From: Callorhinchus milii
Lineage: Eukaryota
Reading direction: 5' to 3'
Length of the DNA: 64,000 bases
NCBI RefSeq assembly: GCF_018977255.1
Contig: NW_024704742.1
Coordinates: 34,846,001-34,910,000, forward strand
Part shown: positions 1-32,226 of the stretch, in pieces
Position numbering within the stretch: the first letter of the stretch is position 1
Layout of the letters: each line of letters begins with the position of its first letter
Notes under the pieces: model-generated
What the model was told of the DNA's origin: nothing
Database searches by the model: none
What the model saw: the letters and a program-made list of their open reading frames with translations, nothing else
Made by a program: the position numbers and the translations under genes

Positions 1-1505
1 CCTCAGTCTTGTTCACATTCAATTGTAAGAAGTTTGCCCTCATCCAGGACTTGATGTCCGACAGACAGTCTGTCAGGACAGCAGTGGTCCTGGAGTTGAA
101 GGTGGAGGCAGAAAGATAGAGTTGGGGTCATCTGTATGGAAGTTGACCCCATGTCTGCGGAAGATGTCACCAAAGGGGAGCATGTGGATATTAAAGAGGA
201 GAGGGCCAAGGACAGAGCCCTGGGGGACGCCAGACATGACAGTGTGGGGACTGGAGGAGAAACCGTTAGAGGCAACGAAGTGGAGACGGTGAGAGAGATA
301 GAAATCGATCCAGTCAAGGGCAGGTCCGTGAAGATTTAGTAAAGCGGAGAGGCTGTGTATGAGGATGGAGTGGTTGACAGTGTCGAAGGCGGCAGAGAGG
401 TCGAGGAGGACAAGGAGGCAGAGGGAGTACTGATCACAGATGTTCAGAATGTCATTAGTGGCTTTGACCAGGGCTGTTTCTGTGCTGTGGGCAGTGCAGA
501 AGCCGGATTGGAGGGGTTCAAAGAGGGAATGGTGAGAGAGAAAGGAGTGGAGCTGGGACGTGATGACTCGTTCCAGGACCTTGGAGAGAATTGGGAGGTT
601 AGAGATTGGGTGGTAGCTGGAGATGAGGGATGGGTCCAGGGAAGGTATTTTCAGGATGGGAGTGATGACAGCTGTTTTTAGGGGAGTGGGAACTGGAACG
701 GTGGACAAGAAGAGGTTGATGACATCGGACAGGAGAGGGGGCCAGAAGGTGGAGCTGGGAGATGAGGAGAGAGGTAGGGAAGGGATTGAAGGAGCAGGTG
801 GTGGGCTTGAGTTTGCGGACAGTCGCGGTGAGGGAGGAGGGAGAGATAGGGTCGAAGGAGTATGGGGTGGATGGGTGGCGGGTGGGTCATGAGGGAAAGA
901 TGATGTGGGGGTGGCTGTGGACGGGGCAGAGGTGGCTGAACGTATCCCCTCAATTTTGGTTTCAAGGAAATCCAGCATCTCCTCACAGTTGAAGTTTGAG
1001 GAGAGGATGGATGAGGTATGGGAAGGTGGACGGAAGAGACGGTTTGTGGTGGAAAAGAGAAGCCTGGGGTTGTCCTTTGCCTCCAAGATAACCTTGGAGT
1101 AGAAGGAGGATTTTGCGGAGGCAAGAGCGCAGTAGTAGATCTTGGTGTGGTGAAGCCAGATCTGCTGATGGACCGTTAGTTTGGAATTGGTCCAGGCACG
1201 TTTGGCATCTTGCATTTGTGTCTTGGGGAATGGAGATGGCTGGTGTACCGGATTTACGGGTGCATGAGGCAGTTCGGGAGGTGAGGGGGGCAAGAGAGTC
1301 CAGAATGGAGGAGAGGGAGTTGGAGAGAAAAGAGAGTGAGGAGGGGAGATTGGTTAGGGAGGGCCAGAGGTGTAGGAGTTCAGATGATTCCAGGGCAGTG
1401 AAGAGGGAGAGGGAGGAAATTTTTTTCCACGGACGATATGTGATGGTGGAGGTTTGAGAAAGCGGAGGGGTACAGAGGTATTGAGGGAGATGATGAGGTG
1501 GCCCT
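1..1505 (-). mobile_element. L2-clade non-LTR retrotransposon, degenerate ORF2 (reverse transcriptase) fragment, cut by the window edge
   Basis: The minus ORF 73..1293 contains L2 RT motifs (YHPISNLPILSKVLERV, QSGF..HSTETAL, LLVLLDLSAAFDTVNH, GVPQGSVLGPLLF). The catalytic YADD reads HTDD, and there are frameshifts and deletions. Confidence 0.92.
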
Positions 1506-3849: not shown

Positions 3850-4220
3850 CAAAATCACAAGATTGCTTTGGATGAAGAAGGTCTGTCAGCTCATCTGATT
3901 TTATCCCTCCCTAAACAGTCACCCTCCCATCCTCCCATCACAGCAAATACTTTTTCAATGGGTCCATAACAATGAGTGTCTGGAAACCTATTCCAGTCAT
4001 TAATTATCTTGTGAGTAAATCATTTTTTTCTAATATCTGTTGTGAAATCTGTCCTTTGCAACTCTAAACTAATGTCCTCTTGTTCTACTATCTAGATGGA
4101 TCCAAAGGATTAATCTGGATTTACTTTTTCAATCCCATTCAAAATGTTACACAACTCTACAAGTTCTCCTCTGAATTCACTTCTCTCAAAACAGAGGAGC
4201 CCTCGCCAAATGACAGGAAA
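3850..4220 (-). mobile_element. CR1-type LINE 3' fragment, highly degenerate
   Basis: The reverse complement resembles the CR1 ORF2 C-terminus/3'UTR seen more intact at 49497-50445. Confidence 0.45.
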
Positions 4221-4259
4221 ACCTGGGCATATTATATTGCAGTATTGTATAATAAATTA

Positions 4260-5900
4260 TAAAGCATTAGATAAAGTATCTGAGATTTTTTTATATTAAA
4301 ACGTAAATGTTTGATATATTGTTCTGATATTCGTATGTAGAATCTTACACTTACAGAATTTAACAGTTATTTGCTCTTTGTAAGAATTTAAAGAAAGTTC
4401 TGATGCATTATTTTCTTTCCCAAAGCACAGATGCTCAGTGGGCAATACATACAGACTCAAATACTTGAGCAGATAAAAGTTAACACGATCTTCAAAGACT
4501 ATGCTGTATAGTACTGATCCTCACTAAAACTATTTGGAGAGGAAAACACCATTATCAGGACCAAACAAAACAGATGGTCTTTTGGAAGCTCACATTTAGC
4601 ACGATCATTCTGCAGACTATGTTCTCACTTATTACTTGGAAATCAACCAAAATGTCCACGTTTCATCCTTGAACTTCAGTCACAGGTAATTAGTGGCTGA
4701 AAACTAATACCTACGGAAAGTACTCTGGAAAACCTGCAAATACCCCTGTGCAGAGGATCAGCCCAGGGGTGATGAAAGATCCTGCTCTTTGAAACACGGA
4801 GTCTTTGAATCATGGAGCCCTTTACCAGCTTTCAGTTATTCAAACGTGGAATCAGTGGAATCTGCTATCAGTTCTCAAGCCTTCAAAAACATTTCAATAG
4901 CGCTTTCAATGATATGACATCCGATTATAAAATTACAACAGTCTGCTCAGACACCGAATAAACATCAGCTGCTGGGGTTTAAATTCTGTATTTAATACTT
5001 ATTCTCCTGTTGATTTAATGTCAAAGCTGTGTGTGATGGCAAAGCCTCGTTATATAATCAGCTCTGCATTGTGTTAGTATTTTAACACAGGTTTGATGTT
5101 TAAAATGAAAAAAACTACATTAATGTCACTTTTAATGGGAATCAAATATGTATTTAGGCTCTTCTGCATTACAACAATTTGCATTTATGTAGCACCCTTC
5201 ACGCCGGATGGCGTCTTGGAGCGCTTAACAACGGTGGCCGGGCTTTCAGCCTCTCTGCCCCCACACTCTAGAACTCCATCCCACTGTCCATTCGCCTCAC
5301 TTCCTCCCTCACATCCTTCAAGGCCGGTCTCAAGACCCTTCTCTTCGACCGTGCCTTAGGTCTCCCTCCCACCTCTCTGCCTTCCATCACCCCTACACCA
5401 CCCCTCCCCCATGTTCGGGCCCCGACATCTGACTGTTCAGCGCTTTGGGACGTCCTCCCGACGTGAAAGACGCTCTATAAATGTAATTTTGTTGTTGTTG
5501 TGGAGCCTGATGCCTAGCCATGAGCCAGGGGAGGCAATTACTGAGGGAATACTGAAGAGAAGTTACACTTGTTAGGTACAGAGCTCTGGTAGCAGAGCTG
5601 GGAGCAGTTCACCTGCCCATCCTCTATTCAATTGTGTTCCGAGGAATCTTAAAGAGGGTGAAAGGAATTTTAAACAAAGAGAAAGTAATGTAAAAGGGGA
5701 GCCATGAATTAATGACAACAAGGTTAATCTCATACAATGGCCTGATGAAATGTTAGTGATATCTACGTCCTCTACATTCTTGAAGAGTTGGGCATCTCGG
5801 TTTATACACTTAAGCCTGGTGATGAGTTTCCACGCATGAGGACGTGCAGGTGGACTTGGTACAATGTACAGAGTTGATTCTGTCTTCTGTGTTATTCAGT
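4260..5900 (+). repeat. Arm A of a long inverted duplication (partner A' at ~26850-28460)
   Basis: 4457-4810 is the reverse complement of ~27921-28282 with 7 substitutions and one 8-nt indel by hand count. Similarity continues at lower identity out to ~4260 and ~5900. Confidence 0.95.
5172..5536. mobile_element. Nested L2 3'-end fragments (a minus-strand tail with a plus-strand 3' fragment inside it), inserted only in arm A
   Basis: L2 tail GGGACGTCCTCCCGACGTGAAAGACGCTCTATAAATG..(GTT)n at ~5447-5500. The insertion is absent from A', where GCATTAC joins directly to TAGGGGAATACTGAAG. Confidence 0.85.
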
Positions 5901-6699
5901 AATCAAGTCACTTTCACAACTTCTGTAACCACAACAAAATTAATTTCCTTTGCCTTAGTCTACCCTATGTTTTTGCGGCTGTCATTAGGTTTGTCAGCTC
6001 CAGCAATATGTTGACAATATACCAATATACTTAATGGTCCAGCTGCTTTATCCAATGAATATCTGAGCCATATAAACTCCCAAATTTTTCCCTGTTCTGT
6101 GCTGGGTTAGCACAATCTGAGCCATAGCAAATTTAAAAGTACTGTGACTGGTCTTAGCGCTCAGGGCTAGAGAGGGAAAAATCAGATTAGGTTTCCAATT
6201 ATGATAACTAGATGGGACATTGAAAGAGAGAGAATATTATTAAAGATTAATAATATAACATTTTACCAATGTCATAAAGATTTCTGTTTAATTATTAGTT
6301 CCCTAATATTTAGAACTCTGTTACTTTTGATGGAAAGAGATCAGAACAACAAAAAAGTAGTTTAACATACAAGGTTGCACAGCACCAATCTGATGACAGA
6401 CCATCAGAACCCATTTAATCCTCTGGAATATGGAAATAAATACAGACCAGCCTTGTGTGTAGCATTTGGAGGAGCAGAACAGTCACAGGGCATTGGGAAT
6501 CTTCCTGCTTGGTTCCTGATAGCTCTGCAAGCCAAAACCTAATGTGTAGGGTGTTCCCATGGCAAAAGAAGTTTGTGACCAGCACTTCGCTTTTCAGACT
6601 TTTGCTCCTAAGGTTTGTCACTATGTTTCAAGTAATAATTCAATTTTGAGGTTCAGTTGATGAAAAACTGCTCTGCTTATGGAACAATATAAATCCCCT

Positions 6700-8270
6700 G
6701 GAAAATGGAAATAAATACTAAATGTTTAGTTATAATTAATAATAATAATAATCCTTGCATTTGATATTGTGTTTTTCACTCTGAGTTAGTGCATTTCAAG
6801 ACTCAAAGTGCTCCAAGGGCTTCATAGCACTGGAGAGTACAATGACTGTGCATTGTGTAGAAGCAGCTGATTTGCATGCAGCAATATCCCACAAACAGTC
6901 TTGAAGGGGATGACCAAATGTATCTGGGAGATTGTTGGTCCAGGACACCAGGGGAAACTTGTTTATTTTTGCACAGTGACTTCCACCTAAACAAGCAGAC
7001 AGGATCTCAGTTTACCATCTCATCCAAAATAAGCACCTCCAGCAATGCAGCACTTTCTCAGTACTGCATATTGAGTTCAAAGACCCAACATGGGACTCGA
7101 GCCCACAACCTTTTGACTCATAGGCAAGAGCACTACCAACTGAGCCAGGCTTTCATGTGACTATTATTTTAGTATTTATGTCACAAACAGTTGACCTGCA
7201 TCTCAGGATCACTGCAGGAGTACATTCCGTTCAATGCTCATACTTAGAGTTTTACCACAAACAAATCTGGCACAATGGTAGGAGATTGCTTCATACTGAG
7301 TCCACACTTCCCCAAATTCAGCATGTTGAGTTATTGAACAAAAACACACTTTATTTCAGAAAAAAAATGCTCTCCCAACAAACAGTCTTCTCCACTTTTC
7401 ATGAGATGAAATGACCTGATTGTTACTGGAGTAAGAGTCGTAAAAAAGAGTTTTGTGTGGCTTTCCTGGAGAATGGTTTTGACCAGTTATGTTAATTCTA
7501 AAATAAGTCATCAGTGTATTTTTTTTAGGATTGCCAGTCTGAACTACAGGAATTCCTGCAAATAAATACGTAAAGCAATAGCTCAACCACAAGAAACAAA
7601 GAATGAAGATGAAAATCTGTGGTTAACAAGTAAACTGGGCAGGTGAGGTGACTGTGACAAGCACATTCCTGTGCCGCTGTTGAGGTTTTTTCTAATATCC
7701 CAAGAGCAGCACTTGTGAAGCAGTTCACATCACATCTGCATTATTTTTCCAAAAAAACAGCTGGCTGAGGGGGAATCACCACCAAGCCATTGTCTAGTCT
7801 TTGAAATTAATCCCAACTAAAGAGGCATCTTTTGTTGGAATCCCTTCCTCTGTTGCATTAGCAAATGATTTATCAACACAGACATCAGTCAACTCATGAG
7901 TTCTACAGTCTAATAGCTTATATGCTTTGAAAACTTCTACTTTGAGCAGTCCAATTGAAACATCTGCTGGTAAAACCATGTGAAAGATTTAATAGTAGGA
8001 ATGCCATGAAAAACATGTGTCTATCTTGTAGGCTTTGATGTTCTGTATATTAAAGAGCAACTCAGCCTTCTATATTTTACAGAATGATAGAGAAACTGAG
8101 TCTGTTTCTTGGAAATCCTTTAAATAAGTCTTCTCCCCCTACACAGGACATCAAAATTCGAACATCTTAGCATTAAATGAAATTCTAAAGAAAAGATTGT
8201 TGTTCAGTTTCTCTCATTGCCTATAGGCAAAAGGGACTATAAATAAATGAATGAATAAATTGATCCAATT
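6700..8270 (+). repeat. Arm B of a long inverted duplication (partner B' at ~19700-21160)
   Basis: 7611-7880 is the reverse complement of ~20365-20634 at roughly 95%, including a 57-nt perfect run at 7754-7810. Weaker matches include 8081-8130 vs 19866-19916 and 7161-7560 vs 20690-21140. Confidence 0.95.
6738..7150 (-). mobile_element. Deu-type tRNA SINE (long type), inserted in arm B only
   Basis: (AAT)n-CCTTGCATTTGATAT tail at the left end and the tRNA head reverse complement (GAGCACTACCAACTGAGCCAGG) at the right end. Confidence 0.8.
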
Positions 8271-8559
8271 GCAGTATGGAAGGAACCTCATCAGATCGAC
8301 AACGCTGTATAAGAGGCTATAATTAATAACCTCACTGTCACCAGGTTACAATAGTGTGTAAGTACGTGCAACAATTATTAGCTCGTGTTACACATCATCT
8401 CGGAATCACAAAAATAATCTTTCAATATTATAATAAGACTGGCATCAGGAGCAAGATAAAACTCAAAGAATGTTAGAAAAGGAGACAAACAAGAACTAAA
8501 CTGAGAAAAACAATCTTTGCATTTTATATCGCACCGCAGGCCGTCGAAACCCTCATACA

Positions 8560-9155
8560 TGCTTTCATTATCTCGATTTGACTATGCAAATTCATTGCTT
8601 GTCGGCCTCCCCAATTCCTCCCTCAACAGGCTGCAGATCATCCAGAACTCTGCAGCCTGTGTCCTCTCCCACACTAGGCTCCGCGACCCTATCACCCCCA
8701 TCCTCACCCGACTCCACTGGCTTCCCGTCACACAGAGGATACAGTTCAAGATCCTAGTCCTCACCTTCAAAGCCCTCCATGGTCTTTCTCCCTCCCTCCC
8801 TCTCCGATCTCCTAAGCCCCTACCATCCTGCTCACCCCTTCTGCTCAGCGGGCTCCGGCCTGATTCACATCTCCTGCCTTGCTCGCCCGAGCCTTGGCAG
8901 ACGGGACTTCCGCCACTCTGCACCCACCCTCTGGAAATCCACCCCGCAGTCCCTCCTCGCCCCTTTCCTTACCAACTTCAAGACCCATCCCAAGACCCTC
9001 CTCTTCGACCGTGCTTTCAATCTCCCTGCTTCCCCCACTGCCCTCCACCCTCCCCGACCCCAACCCCCAGCTCAGGTGCGTAACTGTCTGTCCAGCACCT
9101 TGGGACGTCCTCCCGACGTGAAAGAGGTTATACAAGTTTAATTTTGTTGTTGTTA
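8560..9155 (+). mobile_element. L2 LINE 3' fragment
   Basis: Encodes SRFDYANSLLVGLP..LQIIQNSAA..ITPILTRLHWLPV..RIQFKIL (L2 ORF2 C-terminus); ends GGGACGTCCTCCCGACGTGAAA..(GTT)n. Confidence 0.9.
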
Positions 9156-9619
9156 ACAAATTACAATGTCTCAAAGCAAATCAAGTTTCTTTTGTAGGCG
9201 ATTTAGGAAACATATTAACTGACTACTTTATGTAGGGTTTTTCTTTATGAAGGAAGACTCAAACAATACTCTGTTTAACATCCAATTACATTGTTGAGGG
9301 GAGTGGGATGTGGAAGTGGAATCAGGAAAATGCTCAAATCTTAAAAAAGAGTTGGTCAAGGGAGTGTGTCTGGGCTGTTTACTGGATAATTAAGTTCCAT
9401 ACGGATAAAGAAAAGAGGAAAAAGCAATTAAAAAAAGGATGTACCGTAATAATATGCAATACATGGATGGGAATGTTAGTCAATAAACAAAGCAATTATG
9501 ATGTTGGTCCATGTTGAAAAATCAATTGAGTTAATTATCCCTAGAAATCATACTCAAGCTTTGGAGCACTGCCATTCAAGCACTTTGTATTATCTGGGCA
9601 TTGTGACGTAAAGGATCCA

Positions 9620-10015
9620 TCAGCCTTCAGAGGGAGCATAGAGTAGATCAGAGGTTCATCTTTAATGTTAGAGGGATGATGTATAAGAAACAATTAGATA
9701 AATAAGGCTCTTCAGTACTGAAAAGAGATGTTGCAAATAGGATTTTATAGAAGTATATAAACATAGATACCAAAAGGGATTGAAAAAGTAAATTTCACAT
9801 GCATCAAGGCAGCAGAACATAAGGGCAGATGTTTACGATTATCCAACTACAGGGCAAACACAAGGCTGTTTTTCTTTACACCGAGAATTAACAGCTGGAA
9901 CAGATTATCAGGTGGGTGGTTGAAGCCAGGACGCTGGACCAGTTTAAGAAACACCTGGAGGATGTAATGGGAAAATGGTAGGCTTGCTATTCTGGAATGC
10001 TGAGACCAAATTGGC
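9620..10015 (+). mobile_element. CR1-type LINE 3' fragment, degenerate
   Basis: Degenerate match to the CR1 ORF2 end (QRRF...LGLFSLEKR...DLIEVYK-like) seen at 49950-50400. Confidence 0.55.
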
Positions 10016-10599
10016 CAAAGGATCTAATTTAGCTGTACATCTCCTGTTTTCTTGTTTAACTGAGGCTAAGTGTAGGGAAAGGAGTATTAGCTTACCTTAG
10101 CTCTTTCCTTGCAGCTGTTAAAATGTTCACTGCCACAACAGGCTTCAGTCTTTGTTTCAAGGTAATAGTTACTGCATTAACAATTGTACAACGTAAAACC
10201 TACAGGTTATAATTTTCTGCAGATGTACACTGGCTGTAAGTGAGTCTGCAGCAGTCTTTCCAACATTTGTTACAGGCTTTTATAACCACACAGGTACATT
10301 CTCTCGGCATCATCAAAGCTTTCTGCAATATTCAAAGATCCCTATTACTTTCTGGTAGCCTTTGGGATTATAACTATTTAATTTAGCCATTTTGGCATTA
10401 TACTTTGCTCTGGTTGAAAAAATATGAAATAATTTGCAAGTTATTCAACCATTAAGATTCTATATAGAAATACAGAGACAGAAGTAAGCACAAGGAGCCC
10501 GCTGAGCCATTTTATTAATTCACGGCACCTATCAATCTTTTACAGGTCTGTGGGCCCTGTAGCTTGTGATCAAACATGTGATATATATCTCCTTTTTTA

Positions 10600-11000
10600 G
10601 CAACAACAACAAATTTACAAGAAAATAGGGCCTTTCATGTCAGGAGGAAATCTCAAGGTGCTGGACAGTGCAGGAATTCCACCCTATCTGAGGTTGGAAG
10701 CCAAGGGTGGGTGGAACTTGAGGGGGGTCGGGAAGAAAGTTGACCGAAGGCGCAGTCTTGAGTCAGACCTTGAAGGAGGCGAGAGAAGGGACAAGGTGGA
10801 GGGATTCTGAGATGGAATTCCAGAGAGTGGGGGCAGATAGGCTGAAGGCCTGACCACTGATGTTGGGGCAGCCAGGGTGGGGAAAGGAAGGACGGGGTAG
10901 GTTTGAGTAGACAAACTGGTGGATTTGAGATGAGGGAGTGAGCGGGGGTGAGCAGAGAGAGTAGACAGTTTGAGTGGAGGGAGGGGTTGGTTTTGAGTGG
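10600..11000 (-). mobile_element. L2 LINE 3' fragment
   Basis: (CAA)n tail plus CTTTCATGTCAGGAGG and a G-rich L2 3' region like that at 32227. Confidence 0.75.
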
Positions 11001-11234
11001 AAGGAAGGGGCGGACCCTGTTTGTTGGATTGAGTTTTGGTTGAAAAGATACCATTTGTTCTAGAATTCAAACTGGAAATAATGTGAGCAACAGTAACAGA
11101 ATAAACACAAGTATGAGAGATATTGTGTTGTTACTTTCCTCACTCGACCACGGTGAGCAGTAAAACATTTAAACTTTTCTTCTTTTCTTGAAGATCTCAG
11201 GTGGGATTTCCGGTCTGAGCTGAGTTATAATAAA

Positions 11235-12180
11235 TAATAACAACAACAAACTACACTTGTATAGCACCCTTCACGTCAGAAAGACGTCCCAGGACGCTGG
11301 ACAATCAGGGTTTTGGATCCGAGCTGGGAGTTGGGGTCAGAAGGGGAGGAAGGCAGAGGGAGTGAGGGTGGAAGGGTGACCGAAGGCACGGTTGAAGAGG
11401 AAGGTCTTCAGATGGGACTTGAAGGAGGCAAGAGAGGGGGTGAGGCGGAGGGTTTGCGGGATAGAGTCTAGAGTGTGGGGGCAGAGATGCTGAATACCCG
11501 ACCACCAATGGTGGGGCAGGAAGTGCGGGGGACCTGAAGCAGGCCAGTGTCCACCAAGTGGAGGGACTGGATAGGCTGATATGGGGTAATGAGGTTGGAG
11601 AACCAGGAGGGAACAAGACTGTGGAGAGCCTTGAAGGTAAGAACAAGGGTTTTGTACTCAATTTTCTGAGGAATGGGGAGCCACTGAAGCCGGGCAATAA
11701 TGGGGGTGATAGGTTCCTGGAGCCTGGCGCTGGAGAGGACAAGAGTTCTGAATAATCTGTAGCTTGCGGAGGTTAGAGTCCAGTGAGCAGGCAGTTGGTG
11801 TAGTCAAGCCGGGACGTAATGAAAGCGTGGATCAGGGTCTCGGCGTCCTGCGGTGGGAGGCAGTGGCGGAGGCAGGCAATGTTGCAGAGGTGTGGAAAGG
11901 TGGAATGGGTAACGGCATGAATGTGGAGTTTGAAGGATGGTTGAGGGTCGAAAAGGACACTGAGGTTTCAGATTGGCTCGGTGAGGTGAAGAGTGCAGCC
12001 ATGAATGATGATAGTGTCAGCGTCTAAGGTGAGGAGCTCATGGGAAATGTAGACTTGGAGCCAGGTAAGAAAAGAAACATTGAGGTGGAGGCGAGAGGAG
12101 AAGCGGTAGAGAAGTATAGAATGGTCAACAATATCGAAAGCAGCTGAGAGGTTGAGAAGGACAAGAAGGAGAAGGCATCA
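11235..12180 (-). mobile_element. L2 LINE 3' fragment (~0.95 kb), degenerate
   Basis: (CAA)n tail, CTTCACGTCAGAAAGACGTCCC terminus, and an antisense L2 ORF2 C-terminal region (SRLDYTNCL..LQIIQN). Confidence 0.85.
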
Positions 12181-12217
12181 TAACAACAATAATAATGCTT
12201 GCCATTGATATACCACG

Positions 12218-12425
12218 TCAACAACAACAACAACAACTTGGATTTATATAGCGCCCTCCACCCCGGGCGGCGTCTCAGAACACATCACAGTAATGGATCC
12301 CGGGGCCGAGCCATGGGGAGGAAGGTGACCAAAGACGCGGTCGAAAAGAAAGGTCTTCAGGCGAGACCTGAAAATAGGAAAAGAGGGGGCGAGGCGAAGG
12401 GAGTGAGGAAGGCAGTTCCAGAGCC
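12218..12425 (-). mobile_element. L2 3' fragment of a second subfamily (same as 54140-54387)
   Basis: Tail CAACAACTTGGATTTATATAGCGCCCTCCAC; the translation RLWNCLPHSLRLAPS is shared with the 54140 copy. Confidence 0.8.
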
Positions 12426-13157
12426 GACGAGACATCTCAAAGATATACTGCAAGTGGTGTGACTGTTTTGTGGATTGCCAATTTGCGCACAACAATATCC
12501 CATAATGAGCCAAGGAGTAAATGCCCAGTTTTATTGGGGGCATGTTAGCCAGAATACTGAGAGAAACTCCCAGTAGAAACACCAGGCGAGTTAATTTGTC
12601 TGAACCACTGCAATGTATGGACCACTACAATTAATCTCAGTGCCTCTAGGTTAGGCCGGGACGAGAAATATCAACCAGGTTTACTTCTCCTATTACCTTG
12701 TCATGACATCCTTGGGCTACGGAGGGTAATTCATTACCTGAACAGGTTACCAGGTGGTTGGTTGAGGACAGGATGCTGGACTCGTTTAAAAAAGAGCTTG
12801 ATGCTGTGATGGTTGGTTTGGTATACTGGAAAGAATGAGATCAAATGTGCTGAAGGGCCCTTGGTTCTTCATCTGAATCACTCTTGCGATCTTGTGAAGT
12901 GTACATAATGGACAAGAACAGGATAGCCCATGGTGTGTAACCCTTTAATGCTGACTATCTTGGTTCACATACGATGTGGTGGCTGCATGAATGAAGCACC
13001 TGGAGGGATGCTAGTGTCCATGGGACTTTTTTTCCCCAGCTTTAAATCATCACAATCATTGGGCAAATGTGTCCTGACAGACTGAAAGTTGTAAGATAAT
13101 CAGTATTTTCAGAATTTGAAAATAAATCCCATTCAAACTCCTACCATGCCACTTGTC

Positions 13158-13582
13158 GGGCTGGCTCAGTTGCTAACACTCTTGCCTCCGAATCAGAAAC
13201 TTGTGAGAGCAAGCCCCACTTTAGGACTTGATACTGATTCTCCAATTCAGAGCTGGGGGTGTGTTGCATTTTGAAAGTTCTGTCCTTCTGAGGAGACGTT
13301 AAACCCAGTTCCCTGTTGGACTGTTTAGGTGGACATTAAATATCCCATGGAACTATTCAAAAAGAAAAGGGAATTTCTCCTGATTCCTGGCCAACAATCC
13401 CCGAGGTAAAATTGGTCACTCTTATCGTGGTAGTTGTGTGGATTCACATTGCTGTGTGCATTGGGCTCATGCGTTCATCTACAAATACGTAGTCACTCCA
13501 CTTCACAGTAAATCCTGTCAAGCACTTTGAGACATCCTCCAGATGTGAAAGGTGCTATATCAACCAGAATGATTATCATTAT
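13158..13582 (+). mobile_element. Deu-type tRNA SINE (long type)
   Basis: Head GGCTGGCTCAGTTGCTAACACTC, Deu-like core, and an L2-like tail GAGACATCC..GATGTGAAAGGTGCTATATC. Confidence 0.75.
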
Positions 13583-14299
13583 TAATCACAAGGGAGGAAG
13601 CAGGGCATGCTGAACCACTGGCTTTTCACATCTCTGTAAGTGCTTCCCTGTAATTGCTGGAGGGATGTGAACTTCAGCTGGTCAGGTCTTCTCCTGCCAT
13701 CTTTTCCTTCCCCTGGAGATGGAGCTCTCTCCTGCTGTAAAGTGCTCAGAACAAATGAAAGTTCACACTCACTGAGGGAATTGAGTTCAACTAGCAGTCA
13801 AGTCCATTGAGCTCTGGGACGCTACGGTGCGTGAGGGACACTGTATAAATGCAAGTTGTTGTTGTTTGTATTTGGCAGTCATTAATCTCTGAGTATTTGA
13901 TAGGGGTGATATCTGTGATATTTCATGCCTTGTGATACTTATCACAATCTCCTCTTTTTTAATTTCGCAGATCCCAAGCTCATTCTCTTTCTCTCCCTCT
14001 TTCAGCTATACAACCACTGTAACACAGTATTGTTTAGTATTCGCAGACACAGCGATGAACTCTTCTGTTATGAAGGGTGTTCGCCATACCTTCAGAGGCT
14101 TTTTAAAAAAACAAGTAGAACTTTCTTAACAGGGAAGGTAAGCGGTGTCTCCTTGGAGCTAACTCCAAGGAACATGTTTGGCAATGGAATGTCCAAATCC
14201 CTCTATACCGGTCTCAGTAGTTCAGTTCCTGAGCCAGATGAGTATGCAATATTCCAGGGCACTGCTGGCTGGCTCATCAGCAGGATTTGGGATGGGAGA

Positions 14300-14552
14300 A
14301 CACTGTCACTCGGGGCAGGAATTCTTCCCACTCAAGCCAAAGCCCTAATGGTGCAGTGGTCCCAGCTCATCCACAGCGGGAAAGCTTGCCAGCCGGTACT
14401 CTCAATGACAATTCATGTGGTTTTAGCTGGTTAAACTCCAGCAGTACACCAACACACACTCTGGGGTCCCTAGAACTCTCAGTTTGGATTGGATACTCTT
14501 AAGCATGGTGATGTGTGACTGTATGGGGACACCCAGCTGACCAAAATAAATT
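14300..14552 (+). repeat. Copy of an unclassified dispersed repeat (ends ...GACACCCAGCTGACCAAAATAAA)
   Basis: Reverse complement similarity to 15460-15800 and 37630-38060. Confidence 0.75.
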
Positions 14553-15459
14553 GAGGATGGTGAGACTGATAAAAATAAAGTGCACTTTTATGGAAAAGTA
14601 TGAGTAACTTAGTAATGGTCATCTGAGAGGAACCAGCAGAGAATCGTTTGAAGCAAAATGTTGGCATTTCCCCATTCTGTAGAAATATTCACTTTCTGCT
14701 TGGCACAGTATCTGTTTCAAAAGAAGCAATTATTTTGGATGTGTAGCTTACCTAAAACTCCCCAACACATCCTGTTAAATAAGGTAAAAAAAATCACAAC
14801 TGTGATGAGAAGAAAGTAACTTACAAAATGGGGTCACCACAAACGATGTTTCACAAAATCACCAGAAAGGTTCGAATGAAGAAGACCCTTCAGCCCATTT
14901 GATCTTATCCTATCAGAAAACCCATCCTAACGTCTTCCCATTGTCACGTAAAACTTCTTTTTAATGAGTCCAGCGTCCGGGCCTCAAAACGCTTCCTGTA
15001 ACTTGTTCCCAGAGATTGATTACCCTCTGGGTAAACAAAAACTTCCTGGTATCTGTACTGAAACTGCCTTTTACAATCCTAAAGGTCATTACGGTGGTAT
15101 TTCTTTGTGAGGAATTGATAAAATCCAAAGGAACAAGGTGTCATCCAGCTATATGCATGCACGAAGAACATGTTAATTGTTATACAAAAAGGTGAGGTTG
15201 AAAGATCATGCATTTAAACAGCTCCAGTACTTGATGAAAGTGGATAAACCCTTCCGCGTAGTTTTCATGTTGCGGTGCTTATAGAAACCACTGAGAGCAA
15301 GACAACATTGATTGGAACCTCAATCTGGGTTTGCATAAGCGCAGAAAAGGAAAAGGAAAAGCTAAGGTTTATATTACAACAGAATTTTTTAGATCAAAGG
15401 AGATTTGGTACACATTGGATACTATTATTGATTTATCCAAACAAATTAGAATGCAGTAT

Positions 15460-15900
15460 TTTGTTTTAGTCAGCCGGGTTTCTGACACATGCAGAAACCC
15501 ATCACCGTGCTTAAGAGTATCTAAATCAGATTGAGAGTTCCAATTATATATGCCACCTACACGTGGAAATATTCCTGTGTGGAATGCATACTCTCTCCTT
15601 GGAGGGGCACACCTTGCTTGGCTAATTTCAAAGAGTATGAGGCAAAGGTTGGCAAGAGCCCAAACTTGGAGACCCTAGAGTGTGTATTGAGGTACTGCTG
15701 GAGTTTAACCAGTTACAATCACAAAGCTTACCATTGCATGCACTGTCTGGCAAGCTGTCCCCTGCTATGGGACTATGGAGTCCAGGGTTAACAGGAGCTG
15801 AGTCCCTCCGCCTGTGTAGTCCTCCAAGTTCTGCTGATGTGCCAGGCTGGCTAGTCTGTCATCAGCAGTGCTCTGTAGTACTGTAAACCTGCCTAGCTCA
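15460..15900 (-). repeat. Copy of the same unclassified dispersed repeat
   Basis: GTCAGCCGGGTTTCTGACACATGCAGAAACCCATCACCGTGCTTAAGAGTATC..., collinear over ~350 bp with 37636-38000. Confidence 0.8.
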
Positions 15901-16899
15901 GGAACCAGTCTACCGAGAACCAGCTTGGCTCCAAGAAGACCCCGCTTATCTATCCGTCCACCCCTCCTTTCCAGGAGTATATACATAGTCAACATAGTAC
16001 CGCAGAAACCTTTTTGGTGTATATGGAAAAGATGTGACATTGGGGAGGGTGGGTGGCTGAATGATGGGCAAAGTGCCAATTAGTAAATTACTGCTCCTAA
16101 ATTAAAATATATCTCAGCTTTTATTTCTGTACGGTTTTACATATTCTATAAACAATTAAATATTATAAATAATGAATAATCTTTGCATCTAAGTACTTAA
16201 AGACGGCCTCTTTAAACGTGAAAGGCGCTATATAAACTTTATTGTATTTGATGTAATGTTTTACCGCGTCAGCGAAGCCTCTCAAAGTACTTCACTGAAT
16301 GTTTACGGTTAAGTGTAGTGACTGTGTATTTTGTGAGCGGAAAACCTACTCCGCTATTTAAAGTTACAAGCCACATGCTGGGAATTAAACTTAAGTGTTT
16401 TGTGATATGCACATAAACTGTTTATGGTTTGTCACTTTGAATGAGAACACGTTGTGGCCAGTGTGACCACAAGCCCAAACCAAGGCAAAGGGTCTGATAG
16501 GATGCTAGGACGCCATCTGTCGCCAAGGAAAAACACAACACCGTAAAATAAAAATAAAATCACAAACAATTCCACCTCCCACGTTAGCTAGAAAATGTTG
16601 CACCTTAACAAAAAAAAAGCATGTCATGTAAAGCAATCCATGCCCCCATGCACCAATCCCAAAATTAACGCTTTAAGCATCAGTCACTTCCCTGAGCAGC
16701 AAAGAAAATAAAAAGTGCTTTGTGCATTGCAAAGAACTGCAGGAAACATCCTCGATTTTTTTTTTAAAAAAGTGTGTTCTTAAAGCAATGCAGAGTGGAA
16801 ACTCAGGAAAAAAGGTCTTGTCCAATACATGGGGTCACTGCAGCAGCTGTTTTGAGTGCATGATCTCTCAAATCACAATGTCGTGGACATCTATAAATC

Positions 16900-18249: not shown

Positions 18250-18334
18250 ATGAGCTGTGTGCACCTTTGGTTTGTTGTTGCTGCTGCTGCTGCTGCGTTG
18301 ACCAGTTTGGTAACCTTGCCGCAGGAGAGTGAAG
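18250..18334 (+). CDS. FRAS1: FRAS1 (Fraser extracellular matrix complex subunit 1) coding exon 1: signal peptide MSCVHLWFVVAAAAAALTSLVTLPQESE + phase-1 G
   Basis: Start context CACCATGA, a hydrophobic signal peptide, and donor GAAG|GTTGGT. Spliced to exon 2 it gives ...LPQESEGVCVYQGSFFA, matching human FRAS1 ...LPHHSEGACVYQDSLLA (recalled from memory) with the same short-exon layout. Confidence 0.9.
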
Positions 18335-19699: not shown

Positions 19700-21160
19700 T
19701 AACTGAACCAGTTTATTTATGTTTATATATTTAGTTAGTTAGGGAGGTCCTTTTAATTGAATTGGAATAATGAAAGAAATTTAGAACAATTTGCTCTGCA
19801 ACGTTTTCTTATTTATTGCCCAAATGTTTGTATTTTATTGGCCCCTTGGTAAACAGGATTCGCATTGTCTATTTCAGTGATTTCCAAGACACAGACTCTG
19901 TTGCTCTATCATTCTAATCTAATCCTAATCCTTGCATTTGATATAGCGCCTTACGTGTCTTCGAGACGTCTATCTAGCGTCTAGCACTATCTAATTGTAA
20001 AATAACAACAACCACCACAAAATACATTTGTATAGAACTTTTCACATCGGGGGTACAACCCAAGGTGCTGAACAGTCAGGGATTTGGATCCGAGTTGAGG
20101 GTAGGATCAGAGAAGGTTGATCTTTGATACTGTATATACTGAAGAAAGGGGGAGGTCCTCCTGATGTGAAAGGCGCTATATAAATGCAATTTGTTGTTTG
20201 TTTGTTGTTGTTATAGCCTATATACAAGATGGACACATTTTTCATGGCCCTCCGACTCTTAAATTTTTTACATGGTTTTACCAATGGATGTTTCAATTGC
20301 CCTGTTCAAAGTAAAAGTTTTCGAAGCTTATACGCTACTAAACTATAGAAGTCATGAGTTGATTGTGTTGATAAATTATTTGCTAATGCAACAGGGGAAG
20401 GGATTCCAACAATAGAGGCCTCTTTAGTTGTGGTTAATTTCAAAGACTAGACAATGGCTTGGTGGTGATTCCCCCTCAGCCAGCTGTTTTGTTTGGAAGA
20501 ATAATGCAGATGTGATGTGAGCTGCATCACAAGTGCTGCTCTCAGGATATTAGAAAAAACCTTAACAGCGGCACAGCAATGTGCTTGTCACAGTCACCTC
20601 ATCTGCCCAGTTTACTTGTTAACCACAGATTTTCGTCTTCATGGATGTTTTCTTGTTAATGTGCTGTTGCTTTATATATTTATTTTGAGGAATGCCTGTA
20701 GTTCGGACTACTTATAAATATATTGAATAAATATGCACTGGTGATTGGTTTTAGAATTATTGAAATTGGTCAAAATCATTCTCCAGGAAAGCCACACAAA
20801 AGTCTATTTTATGGCCATCATTGCAACAACAATAACTTGCATTTGTATAGTGACCCTCACGCAGGGGCCAGTAACAATCAGGTTATTTTAAGTCATGAAA
20901 ATGGGACCAGGCCATTTGTTGGGAGAATGGTATATTTCTGAAATAAAATGTGATTTTTGTTCAATAACTCACTTACGTGCTGAAGTTGGGGGAGCGTGGA
21001 CTCAGTATGCAGGAATCTCTTGTTATTGAGCCAGGTTTGTGTGTGGTAACGCTCTAAATATGAGCATGGAACAGACTGTAATCTTACAGTGATGATGAGA
21101 CACAGCACAGCTCTTTGTGACATCAACGCTAAAATAATAACTAGTTTAGTATTTATATCC
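19700..21160 (-). repeat. Arm B' (FRAS1 intron 1), inverted copy of 6700-8270
   Basis: See arm B. It carries its own SINE/L2 tail cluster at ~19917-20214 and a short L2 tail at ~20822-20867; both are absent from B. Confidence 0.95.
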
Positions 21161-22894: not shown

Positions 22895-23260
22895 TAGTTT
22901 CATATAGCACATTTCACACCATAAGGACATCCCAAAGAGCTTCACAGGATGTCCTGTAAAATGTAGTAACTTTGTGTTTTGTGGATGGAGACAGCAGCCA
23001 ATTTATGCATGAACAGTTGGGGATTTGTCAGCCAGGACATAGGGAGAAACTTCTTTTTTTTAAATAACACTATCGGATCTTTAACATCCAGACAGGCAGG
23101 GCTCCATTTTAACTACTCATCCAAAGGATAACCCCTTCAATAATGCAGCACCACATTAGAGTGTCACATTAGACTATATGAGCTCCAAGTCCTAATGTGG
23201 CCTTGAGCCCCCAGCCTTCTGACTCAGAGGTGAGAGTGCTGCCAAACAAGCCAGCCTTAC
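22895..23260 (-). mobile_element. Deu-type tRNA SINE (long type)
   Basis: Reverse-complement tail (CATCCCAAAGAGCTTCACAG) and head (CTTCTGACTCAGAGGTGAGAGTGCTGCCAAAC). Confidence 0.75.
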
Positions 23261-24751: not shown

Positions 24752-24783
24752 GTGTGTGTGTCTACCAGGGATCATTCTTTGCG
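24752..24783 (+). CDS. FRAS1: FRAS1 coding exon 2 (32 nt, phase 1 to 0): (G)VCVYQGSFFA, start of the first VWC domain
   Basis: Acceptor TTTTGTTTTCTCTCTTCGCAG| and donor GCG|GTATGT. It is in frame with exon 1 and aligns to human ACVYQDSLLA. Confidence 0.92.
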
Positions 24784-26849: not shown

Positions 26850-28462
26850 CACTGAATAACACTGGTGTAGACGGTTTTGAGGATAGAGAGAACTCTGTGC
26901 AAGGTCCGATAAAGTGCTATACAGCAGAGCTTGCAATCTTTCAGTACATAGGTTAGGAATCAGAAAATGAAATGGTTGTTGGTTGGTTGTTCACACTAGA
27001 AACCCATCACCATGCTTAAGAGTATTCAAACCAGATTGCTCAACTCTTCCAAGATTGCACAGGAAGCAGATATCATCAGCATTCATCAGGGGCTATCCTC
27101 TTTGTCATTAATTCATGAACCCCTTTTACATTACCTTCTCCTTGTTTAAAATTCTTTCACCCGCTTTAAGACTCCTCGTAACACCATTGAATAGAGGATG
27201 GGCAGGTGAACTGCTCCCAGTTCTGCCCACAGAGCTCTGTACGTGGCAGGTGCACAGCAACAGCCTACGGTGACTTCTCTTCAGTATTCCCCTAGTAATG
27301 CAGAAGAGCCTAAATATATATTTGAATCCCATTAAAAGTGTCTTATGATGTTAGTGCAGTTTTTTTTATGTTAAACATCAAAGCTGTGTTAAAATACTAA
27401 CATGATCCAGAGTTGATTATATAATGAGGCTTTGCCATCACATACAGCTTTGACATTAAATCAACAGGAGAATACATATTAAATACAGAATTTAAATCCC
27501 AGCAGCTGATGTTCATTCGGTGTTTGACTAGACACTTTACCAACCTGCCCGCTCCACCAAAGGCCTTCAGCCTTTCTACCCCACCCTCTGGAATTCCATC
27601 TGGAAAGCCCTTCTGCTTCGCCCCTCCCTTGCCTCCTTCAAGGCCTATCTCAAGCCTTTCCTCTTTGACCGTGCCTTTGGTCATCCTCCAGCCTTCTTTA
27701 CTCCAACCCCAGTTTGGATGCAAACTCTTCACTGTCCTGTGCCTTGGGTCGCCCTCTCAACATGAAAGGCGCTATATAAATGCAATTTGTTGATGTAATT
27801 TTATAATTGAATGTCATATCATTGAAAGCGCTATTGAGGTGTCTTTGAAGGCTGGAGAATTGATAGCAGGTTCCACTGATTCCCCGTTTGAAACATGGAG
27901 CCCTTTACCAGCTTTCAGTTATTCAAAGACTCCGTGTTTCAAAGAGCAGGATCTTTCATCACCCCTGGGCTGATCCTCTGCACAGAGATATTTGCAGGTT
28001 TTCCAGAGTACTTTCTGTAGGTATTAGTTTTCAGGCACTAATTACCTGTGACTGAAGTTCAAGGATGAAACATGGACATTTTGGTTGATTTCCAAGTAAT
28101 AAGTGAGCACATAGTCTGCGGAATGATCGTGCTAAATGTGAGCTTCCAAAAGACCATCTGTTTTGTTTGGTCCTGATAATGGTGTTTTCCTCTCCAAATA
28201 GTTTTAGTGAGGATCAGCACTGCTGTACTATACAGCATAGTCTTTGAAGATCGTGTTAACTTTTATCTGCTCAAGTATTTGAATCCATAGTTTATCCAAT
28301 GAGCATCTTTGCTTTGGGAAAGAAAATAATACATCAAAACTTTCTTTAAATTCTTACAAAGAGCAAATGACTATTTTTGAAAGCTCCAATGTATTATCTT
28401 ACATCAAAATTTATATTTTCTATTTTACATAAAAGGATCAGATCTACTTTATCCAATGCTTT
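26850..28462 (-). repeat. Arm A' (FRAS1 intron 2), inverted copy of 4260-5900
   Basis: See arm A. It carries its own L2 fragment at ~27535-27793, absent from A. Confidence 0.95.
27535..27793 (+). mobile_element. L2 3' fragment inserted only in arm A'
   Basis: GGCCTTCAGCC..CTCTGGAATTCCATC..CATGAAAGGCGCTATATAAATGCAATTTGTTG. Confidence 0.8.
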
Positions 28463-30808
28463 TTAATGTACCATTATTATGCACAAGTTTTATATTTTGT
28501 TTGTGATAAGGGTTATCATAGAAGGAAAAAATTTATGTTTTTTATCACAAATTGAATTCCTCCACCAAAATAAATTGTAGATCATTAAGTACAGGCATAT
28601 GGAAAATAGCAGAACTTTTGATCCTTTAGTTGATTGTACTGAAGCCTGGCGGCTGGAACCAATTATTCTGATCAATGTGTATTGGGGAAAGAGACCTTGA
28701 TTGATTCTCAAAACAAATGTTGTACATCTTTGTAGGTAAAAGAGTGAGAATTAAATAGATTCTGTTAGATTTGATGCAGCACATTAAGAACATCTCACAA
28801 TAGTTCACAACGTTTCTGTGAAGTGTAGTGATGGTACATTTATTGACGAACTCCTTGGTTACTTTACACATTGGAACTGAGAATGGTTCTGTGATAGCCG
28901 GACTTCACATATGCAGTATAATCTTTGGAGACTCAGTAGGCTAAGGCAGCCTGGGTGGTAATCTATATTCTGTTTTCCTTGAAGCTGTCTCCAATATTAT
29001 AATGGATGAAAATGTACAAATCTGCATCTGTGAATTTAGAGCTGATTTAGGACTAGAATTGAAAGTGGAACCAAACTTAGATTCTGAAACTAGAATTTGG
29101 TGAACGAATTCAGCAGTCATTCGGGCCCACATTGTTGCCGCACTTGCCTACAAAGAACACAGCTACTGCTCTTCACGGCAAATCCTGTGAAGCTCCTTGA
29201 AATGTTTCAAGGACGTGATAATCATTCTGAGTCTCTCCGCTTCACCCTTCCCTCCCCACCTTCAAAAAACACTTTAAAACCTAACTTTTTGACACCACCC
29301 CCCTCCCCGATCGGTCTGCCTTTCAGCTGTATGAAGCACTTTGAGACGTCCTCTGTGTGAAAGTTGCTATATAAATGTAAATTACTTTTGATAAGTTGAA
29401 TTTATGCTACCGAAAGAAGCTGCTTTGTTTCTAGAGTACAAGTGTGGTTGTGCAGAAAGCCTGAGAGGTAACAATCAGTTCAAAAGAGCTGATGACTATC
29501 ATTGTTTTTTGAATTCTCAACAAAGCTTTCCGACAAACAATAAAACAAACATGGCATTCATTCTTGAGTGGCTAAGTTGTTTTTCACATGGCGAGGCATG
29601 ATTAGTAGCTAATCTGGTACATAGTTGTTCCTTGTCAAGCGGGTAATCAAGAGAGAGATGAAGGCAAGGAAAGCTCATCTGCTCTTGAGCAGGTGGAACT
29701 AAAACATGTCTTAACACAAACAGGACGCAGACAGTTATTGTACATCAAAGACAACAAAATGGCAGTGACAGATGTTAACACCTGGGGAGTGACCCTAGTG
29801 CTTTGGGTGGCAAAGTGGGAGGGGTGGCTGGTGATGGGAGTACAAGCTCTAACCTGTCTTCAACCAAATGTCAAAGGGGATACAGAGAAAAATACAATTA
29901 CACTGTGACCAGACGTTAAATTACGATAATTGATAGTCACAAATTTCCTCTGACTAGAACAATTGTCTAAAAGAGAAGTCTCTTCTGTGGTTCAAGGTTC
30001 CAGTATTGTATCATGATGAGAAAAGTTAAAGTGCAGTGGATGTATTCACAATTCTAAAGCCATGTCAGAAGACATTGACAAAGGGGATCAAAGAAGGAGC
30101 CAGAGTATAGCTGCATTATGAATGGAATGCATCAGTGATGGAAAGCCTTGATAGTGGAGTAAAAGGCAGACTAAAAGTGAATGAGCCCATTTGTCATCTC
30201 ACTCTGATTTGCTCATGGTAAATTGTGAATAAATTAATGGAAGCTTTTGTTTGAAACTTGCTATCACTGGCTGCTAGACTTTTCCTCAAGGGTGTCCTAG
30301 TGACCAAGAGAAAGTCAGCCACAGTTATGGGCAGATTGAAACAAGATACCACCTTACATTACCATAATTACACAACTCAAAACAAAAATCTAGTAATATC
30401 ACCAGAATTAATTCAACTATGAAACCAAGATAACTAGTGATATAACAGACGGATAATATAAAGAGTAAATGTTTCTTGAAGCTATCAGCTGGATTAGTTC
30501 ATGTTAGTATGAGCAAACACCCTATAGAGGTCTTGTATATACTTTGCCAGGATTCAACTCACATATCCCAGATGACAAATGATTTAGGAACATAGGAAGA
30601 CAGAACTGTTGCTCATGTTTCAGTCAACTTGTGCCTCCAATGCAATCCAAACCAGGTTAAAGATGACTGATGATTGATATCTTTGGTGATGATTTAATGG
30701 CATAATTCAGTGTTTAAAAGAATATTAGATGTGCCTTTCAAAGGACCACAAAATATTTGCTCTATCCTCACTTCATCAGTCAGTAAGAATTCATCACTCA
30801 CACTTAAC

Positions 30809-32170: not shown

Positions 32171-32226
32171 TAAGTACCGGAGAGATGTGCTTTGTCTGTT
32201 GAATTGGATTTTATCATCTCAGACTT

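What the first reader, a model, noticed from the sequence alone, without database searches (positions are those of the whole stretch)
4457..4810. About 350-bp core of arm A is ~98% identical to A' while its flanks have decayed
Seen: 4457-4810 vs the reverse complement of ~27921-28282 shows 7 substitutions and one 8-nt indel, with a ~97-nt perfect run at 4514-4610. Adjacent parts are ~90% (4845-5170), and the outer edges (4260-4370, 5720-5900) barely align. Inference: one duplication date cannot give such a gradient neutrally. It implies recurrent arm-to-arm gene conversion, as in sex-chromosome palindromes, or strong purifying selection on both copies of a regulatory element.
Basis: partly seen in the sequence, partly recalled or inferred. 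Interest (0 to 1): 0.72.

Follow-up and report, generated by a model that had tools for sequence, protein, structure and literature searches.

The report
Converting inverted repeat around FRAS1 promoter
An old backwards copy of non-coding DNA sits on each side of the start of a skin-adhesion gene (probably FRAS1) in a shark-like fish, and the middle of the two copies has been kept almost identical by repeated copying between them, a known process, with no function shown for the copies.

Summary
In detail: 4457-4810 and the reverse complement of 27921-28282 differ by 7 substitutions in 354 columns and one 8-nt indel, against 62 in 598 in the flanks (P 2e-7). It is the best-kept block of a decayed inverted duplication (four collinear blocks, 4253-8259 versus 19722-28470) that brackets the promoter and first two exons of a FRAS1-like gene (gene name recalled, not database-confirmed). 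Short-read contigs of another run of the species hold both flank versions and one core, so polishing is not the cause. In two related species the core is again one contig that forks into two at its ends, yet in one of them it differs from this genome by about 8%, and the listed differences fall where both window arms agree. An arm-specific break point and one arm-specific letter are shared with a relative, so the duplication predates the split. This is concerted evolution by arm-to-arm gene conversion with decay from the edges; selection alone is rejected. Mild constraint on the core is possible (8.2% versus 12.6% between species, P 0.07), not shown. Closest: conversion-degeneration of Drosophila duplicates; the F8 intronic/extragenic repeats.

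The parts
4253..5830 (+). Arm A, upstream copy of the main block of the inverted duplication
4457..4810 (+). Core of arm A, 98.0% identical to the core of A'; tract now homogenised by conversion
26999..28470 (-). Arm A', copy in intron 2 of the FRAS1-like gene
27921..28282 (-). Core of arm A'; holds 8 extra nt at 28218-28225 that relatives B, C, D appear to have too (8-9 gap letters per contig), so the loss in A is probably derived
   Evidence: tables 4 and 8
4804..4844 (.). 27-bp segment (4811-4837) between two 7-nt inverted ends; lies in the opposite relative orientation in A' (27894-27920); right limit of the core; seen only in the window's species
   Evidence: table 3
5171..5510 (+). Retrotransposon 3'-tail insertion present only in arm A (L2-like; label recalled)
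   Evidence: 77% to 32235-32524
27534..27790 (+). Retrotransposon 3'-tail insertion present only in A', between the positions matching A 4940 and 4941; one of two organism-C contigs stops aligning at the same point
   Evidence: table 8 record 24
6197..6319 (+). Block C, 73% to reverse complement of 22565-22687
   Evidence: (local score 102 vs shuffled maximum 50 in 30 shuffles)
7162..8030 (+). Arm B, 85.9% (121 substitutions in 861 columns) to B'; core 7615-7864 has 13/250 against 108/611 in the rest
   Evidence: P 4e-7, core picked after looking
20223..21139 (-). Arm B', copy in intron 1
8081..8259 (+). Block D, 65% to reverse complement of 19722-19915; innermost remnant
18250..18334 (+). Coding part of exon 1 (signal-peptide-like, phase-1 GT donor) of a FRAS1-like gene; promoter inferred upstream, about 17000-18200
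   Evidence: gene name recalled, no Pfam hit
24752..24783 (+). Exon 2, 32 nt, pyrimidine tract + CAG acceptor and GT donor, continues the exon-1 frame; no remnant of it on the left arm

Best explanation
A piece of FRAS1 intron 1 to intron 2 was copied once, inverted, upstream of the promoter, before the window's species split from relatives B, C and D (direction of copying inferred; exon 2 is absent from the upstream copy). Since then the two copies, 23 kb apart on one chromosome, have repaired each other by non-crossover homologous recombination (gene conversion). Conversion needs near-perfect homology to start, so each insertion, deletion or micro-inversion shuts it off nearby, and the converted zone shrinks from the edges. 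What is left is a 350-400 bp island at about 2% difference (roughly 50 conversions per mutation per direction) in a duplication that is otherwise 65-90% identical or gone. Crossover between the arms would flip the promoter and exons 1-2 away from the rest of the gene and should be purged, so only conversion leaves a trace. Shown: the gradient, the reality of both arms, one shared core contig in two relatives, between-species difference at sites where both window arms agree, arm-specific marks shared with a relative. Inferred: gene name, direction of the duplication, the rate, the role of heterologies as barriers, selection against crossovers. Weak constraint on the core may help the island last but is not shown.
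For: (gradient)., organism B (X3): two contigs of depth 64.3 and 55.4 end at 4572 and overlap by 30 nt one contig 4543-4899 of depth 118.7 (sum 119.7); 9 listed letters in 4595-4681 differ from the window at full depth, and at all 9 the window's arms agree; chance of 9 parallel changes 1e-6 to 3e-15. Two separate B contigs both carry the 2-nt deletion at 4798 and C at 4893, while organism C has each on one of two contigs. Organism C (X4): one contig over 4407-4797 with 32 substitutions forks at 4770-4799 into two; record 24 stops at 4940 with 29 loose letters (the site of the A' insertion), record 23 runs on to 5009; at 4893 the window (A=T, A'=C) and C (one T, one C) share the arm difference. 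Published pattern: PMC2588116 section 8. Neutral toy model gives the same shape in up to 47% of 40 replicates in a band of settings. Cores are GC-richer than flanks, 41.2 vs 36.1%, P 0.03, as GC-biased conversion would give.
Against: Relatives were seen only as collapsed short-read contigs, not as two phased copies, and the tool warns that contigs drop rare variants and depth is no copy number. Only 40 of 184 difference rows, 12 of 34 indel rows and 32 of 3282 pieces were shown, picked for support, so arm-specific differences may be hidden. Depths do not fit exactly: the B contig (118.7) is above the 91-106 expected for two copies, so a third copy is possible; the C contig (48.9) is only 1.4 times my single-copy median of 35.6 and below the 67.2 sum of its two branches. 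The age rests on one letter (4893) and one break point whose 29 loose letters were not shown. The neutral model gave the shape in at most 3% of replicates in 34 of 72 settings and in 0-20% in the six settings, so persistence needs a fitting rate or some help from selection.
Confidence: 0.8

Rival explanations
1. Conversion plus function: A/A' and B/B' are duplicated FRAS1 enhancers; selection keeps both copies and slows change in the cores, and looping of both to the promoter between them brings the arms together and favours conversion. This adds to the best explanation and does not replace it.
For: Between species the core looks slower than the flank: 32/391 (8.2%) vs 30/238 (12.6%) in organism C, P 0.075; with B's flank 45/358, P 0.054. 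Two separate arms (A, B) both show peaked cores. Three TCF/LEF-like sites in 4457-4845, reached by 1.8% of window tiles. Neutral persistence needs a narrow band of rates.
Against: The core-flank difference is not significant, and no neutral yardstick was available. The TCF excess is one of six recalled motifs tried. No CTCF-like site in the arms (6 hits in the window, 7.4 expected, none in the arms). The core has changed about 8% between species. Slower between-species change in converted arms without function is recalled for Y palindromes (not found in the passages of PMC3403216). No chromatin or reporter data.
Confidence: 0.25
2. Purifying selection alone keeps both copies of a regulatory core near the ancestral sequence, with no exchange between arms.
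For: Peaked identity profile; core somewhat slower than flank between species.
Against: Selection alone predicts orthologues closer than paralogues. Seen instead: paralogues 2% apart in the window, organism C about 8% away with no second, window-like contig over the core at 80% likeness; relatives hold only 0.09-0.14 of the sampled words; 12 of 12 listed core positions where C differs are positions where A = A'.
Confidence: 0.04
3. No ongoing conversion: one late overwrite or re-duplication of the core in each lineage (a single long tract), or separate recent duplications in each species.
For: The 7 substitutions could have built up since one event; limits of the shared tract differ by lineage (window 4457-4810, B 4543 to about 4786, C about 4400-4799).
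Against: It needs at least three separate events at the same place, which is recurrent conversion in all but name; arm-specific marks shared by the window and C argue against separate duplications; in B a second shared patch (about 4870-4900) lies beyond a differing stretch.
Confidence: 0.08
4. Assembly artefact: the core was homogenised by polishing with mis-mapped reads, or the duplication is false.
For: Run X14 may or may not be the source of the assembly (tool caveat); its core contig is a mix (A letters at three sites, A' state at the 8-nt indel).
Against: Contigs of X14 are built without mapping to the window: they hold both flank versions at 4370-4486 (0 and 11 other letters), an A'-type contig whose 12 letters across the micro-inversion and 7 letters after it equal the window's A', and one core contig 4457-4695 at depth 14 with no roughly 90% alternative listed. 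The same forked form is seen in two other species.
Confidence: 0.02

Closest known systems
Conversion-degeneration of duplicated blocks in Drosophila (Osada and Innan 2008, PMC2588116; passages and all of section 8 read)
   Same: Pre-speciation duplicates with high identity in the middle and raised divergence at the edges; paralogues alike within species; identifiable block shrinks with time; rate for Amy given as about 100 times the mutation rate.
   Different: Those blocks were found through protein-coding genes; here the arms are non-coding and inverted, and the gene start lies between them.
F8 int22h and int1h repeats (PMC3211038 passages; PMC3961182 passages and reference titles; conversion between these repeats is recalled from Bagnall et al. 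2005, not held)
   Same: One copy in an intron, another outside the gene in opposite orientation; recombination between them inverts and breaks the gene.
   Different: int22h copies are 9.5 kb and, as recalled, over 99% identical and hundreds of kb apart; here a 350-bp island at 98%, 23 kb apart, inside a decayed duplication; no inversion allele is known here.
Primate X palindromes and the FLNA-EMD inverted repeats (Jackson et al. 2021, PMC8327919, passages; Caceres 2007 seen only as cited there)
   Same: [quoted passage not shown]
   Different: Defined by arms of 8 kb or more and 99% identity, 21 of 26 with genes in the arms, on a sex chromosome; FLNA-EMD inverts without breaking its genes. 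None of this is met here.
Mosaic interlocus conversion among HMA4 paralogues (10.1101/2025.10.29.685298; abstract and outline only)
   Same: Effective conversion rate varies along a duplicate and gives a mosaic of divergence.
   Different: Young tandem coding copies under positive selection in a plant.

Membership tests
Duplicate under concerted evolution by interlocus gene conversion | Duplication older than the species split | tested here: met
   organism C has one contig that stops at the A' insertion site (4940) and one that runs through; arm difference at 4893 shared by window and C. Two marks only.
Duplicate under concerted evolution by interlocus gene conversion | Paralogues closer within a species than orthologues between species (type-C sites) | tested here: met
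   2.0% within the window vs 32/391 to organism C; 9 full-depth sites in B where A = A'. Read from collapsed contigs, not phased copies.
Duplicate under concerted evolution by interlocus gene conversion | Divergence raised toward the edges of the block | tested here: met
   for both A and B.
Duplicate under concerted evolution by interlocus gene conversion | Variants shared between copies and segregating in populations (ongoing exchange) | tested here: inconclusive
   X14 core contig is a mix at depth 14; 1.48-fold expected if all four window differences were hidden in it, but single-copy depth in that run ranges 5.4-10.6.
Sex-chromosome palindrome (definition of PMC8327919) | Arms 8 kb or longer | tested here: not met
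   Arm A 1.6 kb with an insertion, arm B 0.9 kb.
Sex-chromosome palindrome (definition of PMC8327919) | Arm-to-arm identity 99% or more | tested here: not met
   98.0% at best, about 90% in flanks.
Sex-chromosome palindrome (definition of PMC8327919) | Sex-chromosome location | not testable with these tools
   No genome held. Other notes place MAML3, TBC1D9, TLR2 and SEL1L3 on the same piece (unchecked); these are recalled as human chromosome 4 genes.
F8 int22h/int1h-type gene-breaking inverted repeat | Intronic copy and extragenic copy in opposite orientation | tested here: met
   A and B upstream; B' in intron 1, A' in intron 2. Exons are predicted from sequence.
F8 int22h/int1h-type gene-breaking inverted repeat | Recurrent inversion alleles that disrupt the gene | not testable with these tools
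   Needs long reads or inverse PCR across both cores.
Duplicated conserved non-coding element (enhancer) | Between-species change well below the neutral rate | tested here: inconclusive
   8.2% vs 12.6%, P 0.075; no neutral yardstick.
Duplicated conserved non-coding element (enhancer) | Enhancer activity or open chromatin | not testable with these tools
   No such data in reach.
Structured RNA or coding exon | Rfam match, stable fold or open frame kept in both arms | tested here: not met
   No Rfam hit in the arms; DNA fold z -1.31, 14 of 100 shuffles as good; six-frame translations broken by stops; no ORF of 90 aa or more over the core.

The most novel reading that the evidence does not exclude
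The arms are a pair of duplicated FRAS1 enhancers that evolve as one unit: both loop to the promoter that lies between them, the loop raises arm-to-arm conversion, selection keeps both copies and removes crossovers that would flip the promoter, and so a non-coding element on what is probably an autosome has stayed in concerted evolution in several lineages since a deep split (well over 100 million years if B-D are other chimaera families; identity and date not shown). A rarer extension, somatic flipping of the promoter as an off switch, is not excluded but has no support (about 0.02).
Probability: 0.15. Interest if true: 0.7.

Novelty: new member of a known kind. Interest (0 to 1): 0.42.

Why it matters
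It is a clean vertebrate, non-coding case of long-lived gene conversion between short inverted copies, with tract limits that differ between lineages, so it could be used to measure how heterologies stop conversion. It warns that near-identity of two non-coding copies is no evidence of purifying selection. The layout is that of the F8 repeats, so the locus should carry a small load of gene-breaking inversions. If the cores prove to be enhancers, it would link promoter looping to concerted evolution of regulatory DNA. As it stands no function is shown, and other notes on this genome report similar converted pairs.

Tried and rejected
No whole genome was held, so copy number genome-wide and chromosome type were not tested. 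Gene identity could not be tested by protein search: exon 1 gives 29 residues and its open frame 39, under the 40 needed; Pfam found nothing in exon 1; a scan for a Cys-rich third exon gave 5 pattern hits, none convincing. My first reading, that the 27-bp micro-inversion is shared with B and C and dates the duplication, was wrong and was dropped: those runs show zero depth for the inverted letters, and their gap sums (351 = 351, 161 = 161) show an arm 8 nt shorter at 4816-4829 instead. A note of mine gave the B core as 16/300; the right count is 13/250. Coding exon, structured RNA and CTCF site were rejected. High-copy transposon was rejected for the core: two copies in 64 kb and low contig depth next to thousands for the repeat at 4046-4171; a low-copy third site is not excluded. 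No remnant of exon 2 on the left arm (three intervals, scores 25-34, within 100 shuffles each). The first simulation (six settings) mostly lost conversion and gave the shape in 0-20% of 60 replicates; the wider grid is the one to read, and both are toys without indels. Run X8 (organism D) had depth 2-3 and says nothing on copy number. Lack of cover at 4214-4297 in X3, X4, X8 and after 4899 in X3 proves nothing. Small shares in unlaid runs (X1, X2, X5-X7, X9-X13) were not used. Look-ups of earlier findings by place, sequence and words gave nothing.

Full report
Observation. The reported match is exact. Aligning 4457-4810 with the reverse complement of 27921-28282 gives 354 columns, 7 substitutions and one 8-nt indel, with a 97-nt perfect run at 4514-4610. 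The four well-aligned flanking segments hold 62 substitutions in 598 columns (Fisher P 2.3e-7), and none of 20000 permutations gave so quiet a window. The outer edges are 78.6% and 84.8% identical with many gaps.

Anatomy. The core is the best-kept part of a larger inverted duplication. Four blocks lie in mirror order: A 4253-5830 / 28470-26999, C 6197-6319 / 22687-22565 (73%), B 7162-8030 / 21139-20223 (86% of aligned columns) and D 8081-8259 / 19915-19722 (65%). B has its own peak, 13 differences in 250 columns against 108 in 611. Each copy of A carries a private insertion that matches the 3' end of a retrotransposon elsewhere in the window (the L2 label is recalled). The core ends on the right at a 27-bp segment that is flipped in A' between 7-nt inverted ends and is 27/27 identical when turned back. 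Between the arms lie a signal-peptide-like exon (coding 18250-18334) and a 32-nt exon (24752-24783) with good splice sites that continues the frame. This fits my recollection of the start of FRAS1; a first-stage note on this window says the same (not independent), and no database test was possible. So A and B lie upstream of the promoter, B' in intron 1 and A' in intron 2. Exon 2 has no remnant on the left arm. The core is not coding, has no Rfam match and no unusual fold. The repeats look like those of a cartilaginous fish (recalled); other notes call the genome elephant shark (unchecked).

Artefact test. A search with 4370-4810 listed 24 runs; four of the window's species label held 0.60-0.86 of 43 words, and three other labelled organisms 0.09-0.14. 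Four runs were laid on 3920-5170 at 80% likeness; the output showed 40 of 184 difference rows, 12 of 34 indel rows, 15 of 24 joints and 32 of 3282 pieces. In X14 (same species) the flank 4370-4486 is two contigs (0 and 11 other letters), the core 4457-4695 one contig at depth 14, and an A'-type contig reproduces the window's micro-inversion letter for letter (12 of 12) and the 7 listed A' letters after it. These contigs are not made by mapping to the window, so polishing does not explain the core.

Conversion or selection. In organism B (X3) two contigs of depth 64.3 and 55.4 end at 4572 and overlap by 30 nt a single contig 4543-4899 of depth 118.7; the sum is 119.7 and the bin depth fits (184.25 expected, 184.2 seen). 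That contig differs from the window at 9 listed positions in 4595-4681 at full depth, and at all 9 the window's two arms agree. If a window-like second arm were hidden at those sites the depth should be 74-86; with none hidden 91-106. The seen 118.7 is above both, so a third copy or depth noise is possible. In organism C (X4) one contig covers 4407-4797 with 32 substitutions and forks at 4770-4799 into contigs of depth 22.7 and 44.5; its own depth, 48.9, is 1.4 times my single-copy median of 16 values (35.6), which would fit about 2% hidden arm differences plus 177 nt of unique flank (rough). All 12 listed core positions where C differs are positions where A = A'; the listed rows are chosen for support, which favours such sites. 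Two marks do not depend on a collapsed contig alone: the 2-nt deletion at 4798 and the C at 4893 are on both B contigs but on one of two C contigs. Selection alone would leave orthologues closer than paralogues; the reverse is seen. The chance of 9 parallel changes is 1e-6 or less.

Age. Record coordinates of minus-strand pieces run backwards (inferred from X14 record 1). Read so, C record 24 stops aligning at 4940 with 29 loose letters, the site of the insertion in the window's A', while record 23 runs on to 5009; and at 4893 the window (T in A, C in A') and C (T, C) share the arm difference. So the two-arm state predates the split. This rests on two marks, and the loose letters were not shown. 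The 27-bp micro-inversion is not shared: B and C show no depth for its letters, and one of their arms is 8 nt shorter there. B has a joint between opposite strands (4407 to 4514) on one contig, which looks like a separate inversion of about 107 bp at the core's left side. The shared tract thus has different limits in each lineage (window 4457-4810, B 4543 to about 4786, C about 4400-4799).

Mechanism. The copies repair each other by non-crossover recombination; heterologies block the start of conversion nearby, so the converted zone shrinks from the edges. A 2% equilibrium needs about 49 conversions per mutation per direction (25-111). Osada and Innan describe this pattern and cite about 100 for Drosophila Amy (PMC2588116). 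A neutral toy model gave a core of 3% or less with a rest of 7% or more in up to 47% of 40 replicates, but in at most 3% in 34 of 72 settings: selection is not needed, but the rate must fit. Crossover in the A cores would turn the promoter and exons 1-2 away from the rest of the gene (inference from the layout); loss of FRAS1 is harmful in mammals and fish (recalled), so such events should be purged.

Function. The core may be mildly constrained: 8.2% between species against 12.6% in the flank (P 0.075). Three TCF/LEF-like sites (1.8% of tiles, one of six motifs tried) and higher GC (P 0.03) are weak hints; GC-biased conversion would also raise GC. No CTCF-like site lies in the arms. Nothing shows enhancer activity.

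Comparison. It works like the primate X palindromes (within-species arm divergence below between-species; PMC8327919, passages) but is not one: arms are far under 8 kb and under 99%. The layout is that of F8 int22h/int1h (PMC3211038 and PMC3961182, passages; conversion there recalled). Ten paper searches listed no paper on this locus; FRAS1 with 'inverted repeat' gave one seahorse genome paper (listing only). The library lacks most subscription journals, and no supplements were seen. PMC3403216 (passages) gave nothing on arm versus spacer rates. Other notes on this genome report a 205-bp converted inverted pair in MAML3 and a converted TLR2 pair (unchecked), so such pairs are not unique here.

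Verdict. Real, old, and best explained by recurrent arm-to-arm gene conversion in a decaying inverted duplication around the start of a FRAS1-like gene (0.8). Selection alone 0.04, artefact 0.02, single overwrites 0.08; an added enhancer role 0.25. New member of a known kind; interest 0.42.

Noticed in passing
window 40268-40659: Tandem duplication with 199-nt spacing; 184 nt are 100% identical: very recent or an assembly overlap.
   Followed up: no
window 4407-4514 (run X3, table 5): One contig of organism B joins 4407 to 4514 on opposite strands, which looks like an inversion of about 107 bp on one arm at the left side of the core, separate from the window's 27-bp inversion on the right.
   Followed up: partly
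window 4162-4320 (run X4, table 5): A contig of organism C skips 157 nt here and links the arm to the repeat upstream of A, suggesting the upstream copy sits in the same context in that species.
   Followed up: partly
window 4046-4171: High-copy repeat (summed contig depth about 8000-16000 in three runs) next to arm A, with no second copy of note in the window.
   Followed up: no
window 39029-39100, 41874-41945, 52051-52122, 55415-55486: Four tRNA-like Rfam hits at the heads of a dispersed repeat family: tRNA-derived SINEs, not likely tRNA genes.
   Followed up: no
window 73-1353 (-) and 32225-33653 (-): Reverse-transcriptase ORF remnants (Pfam RVT_1, E 5e-21, for the first); their 3' tails recur through the window, including both arm-specific insertions and a short one in B' near 20825-20863.
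   Followed up: partly
window 17107-17960: Long CT/GA-rich tracts upstream of the exon-1 ATG, within the probable promoter or 5' leader.
   Followed up: no
window 4370-4810 (runs X1, X2): Two very small runs of the same species label (5 and 16 million letters) hold 0.23 and 0.21 of the words; their kind is only guessed as DNA. If they are RNA, part of the core is transcribed (A' is intronic, so this could be pre-mRNA).
   Followed up: no
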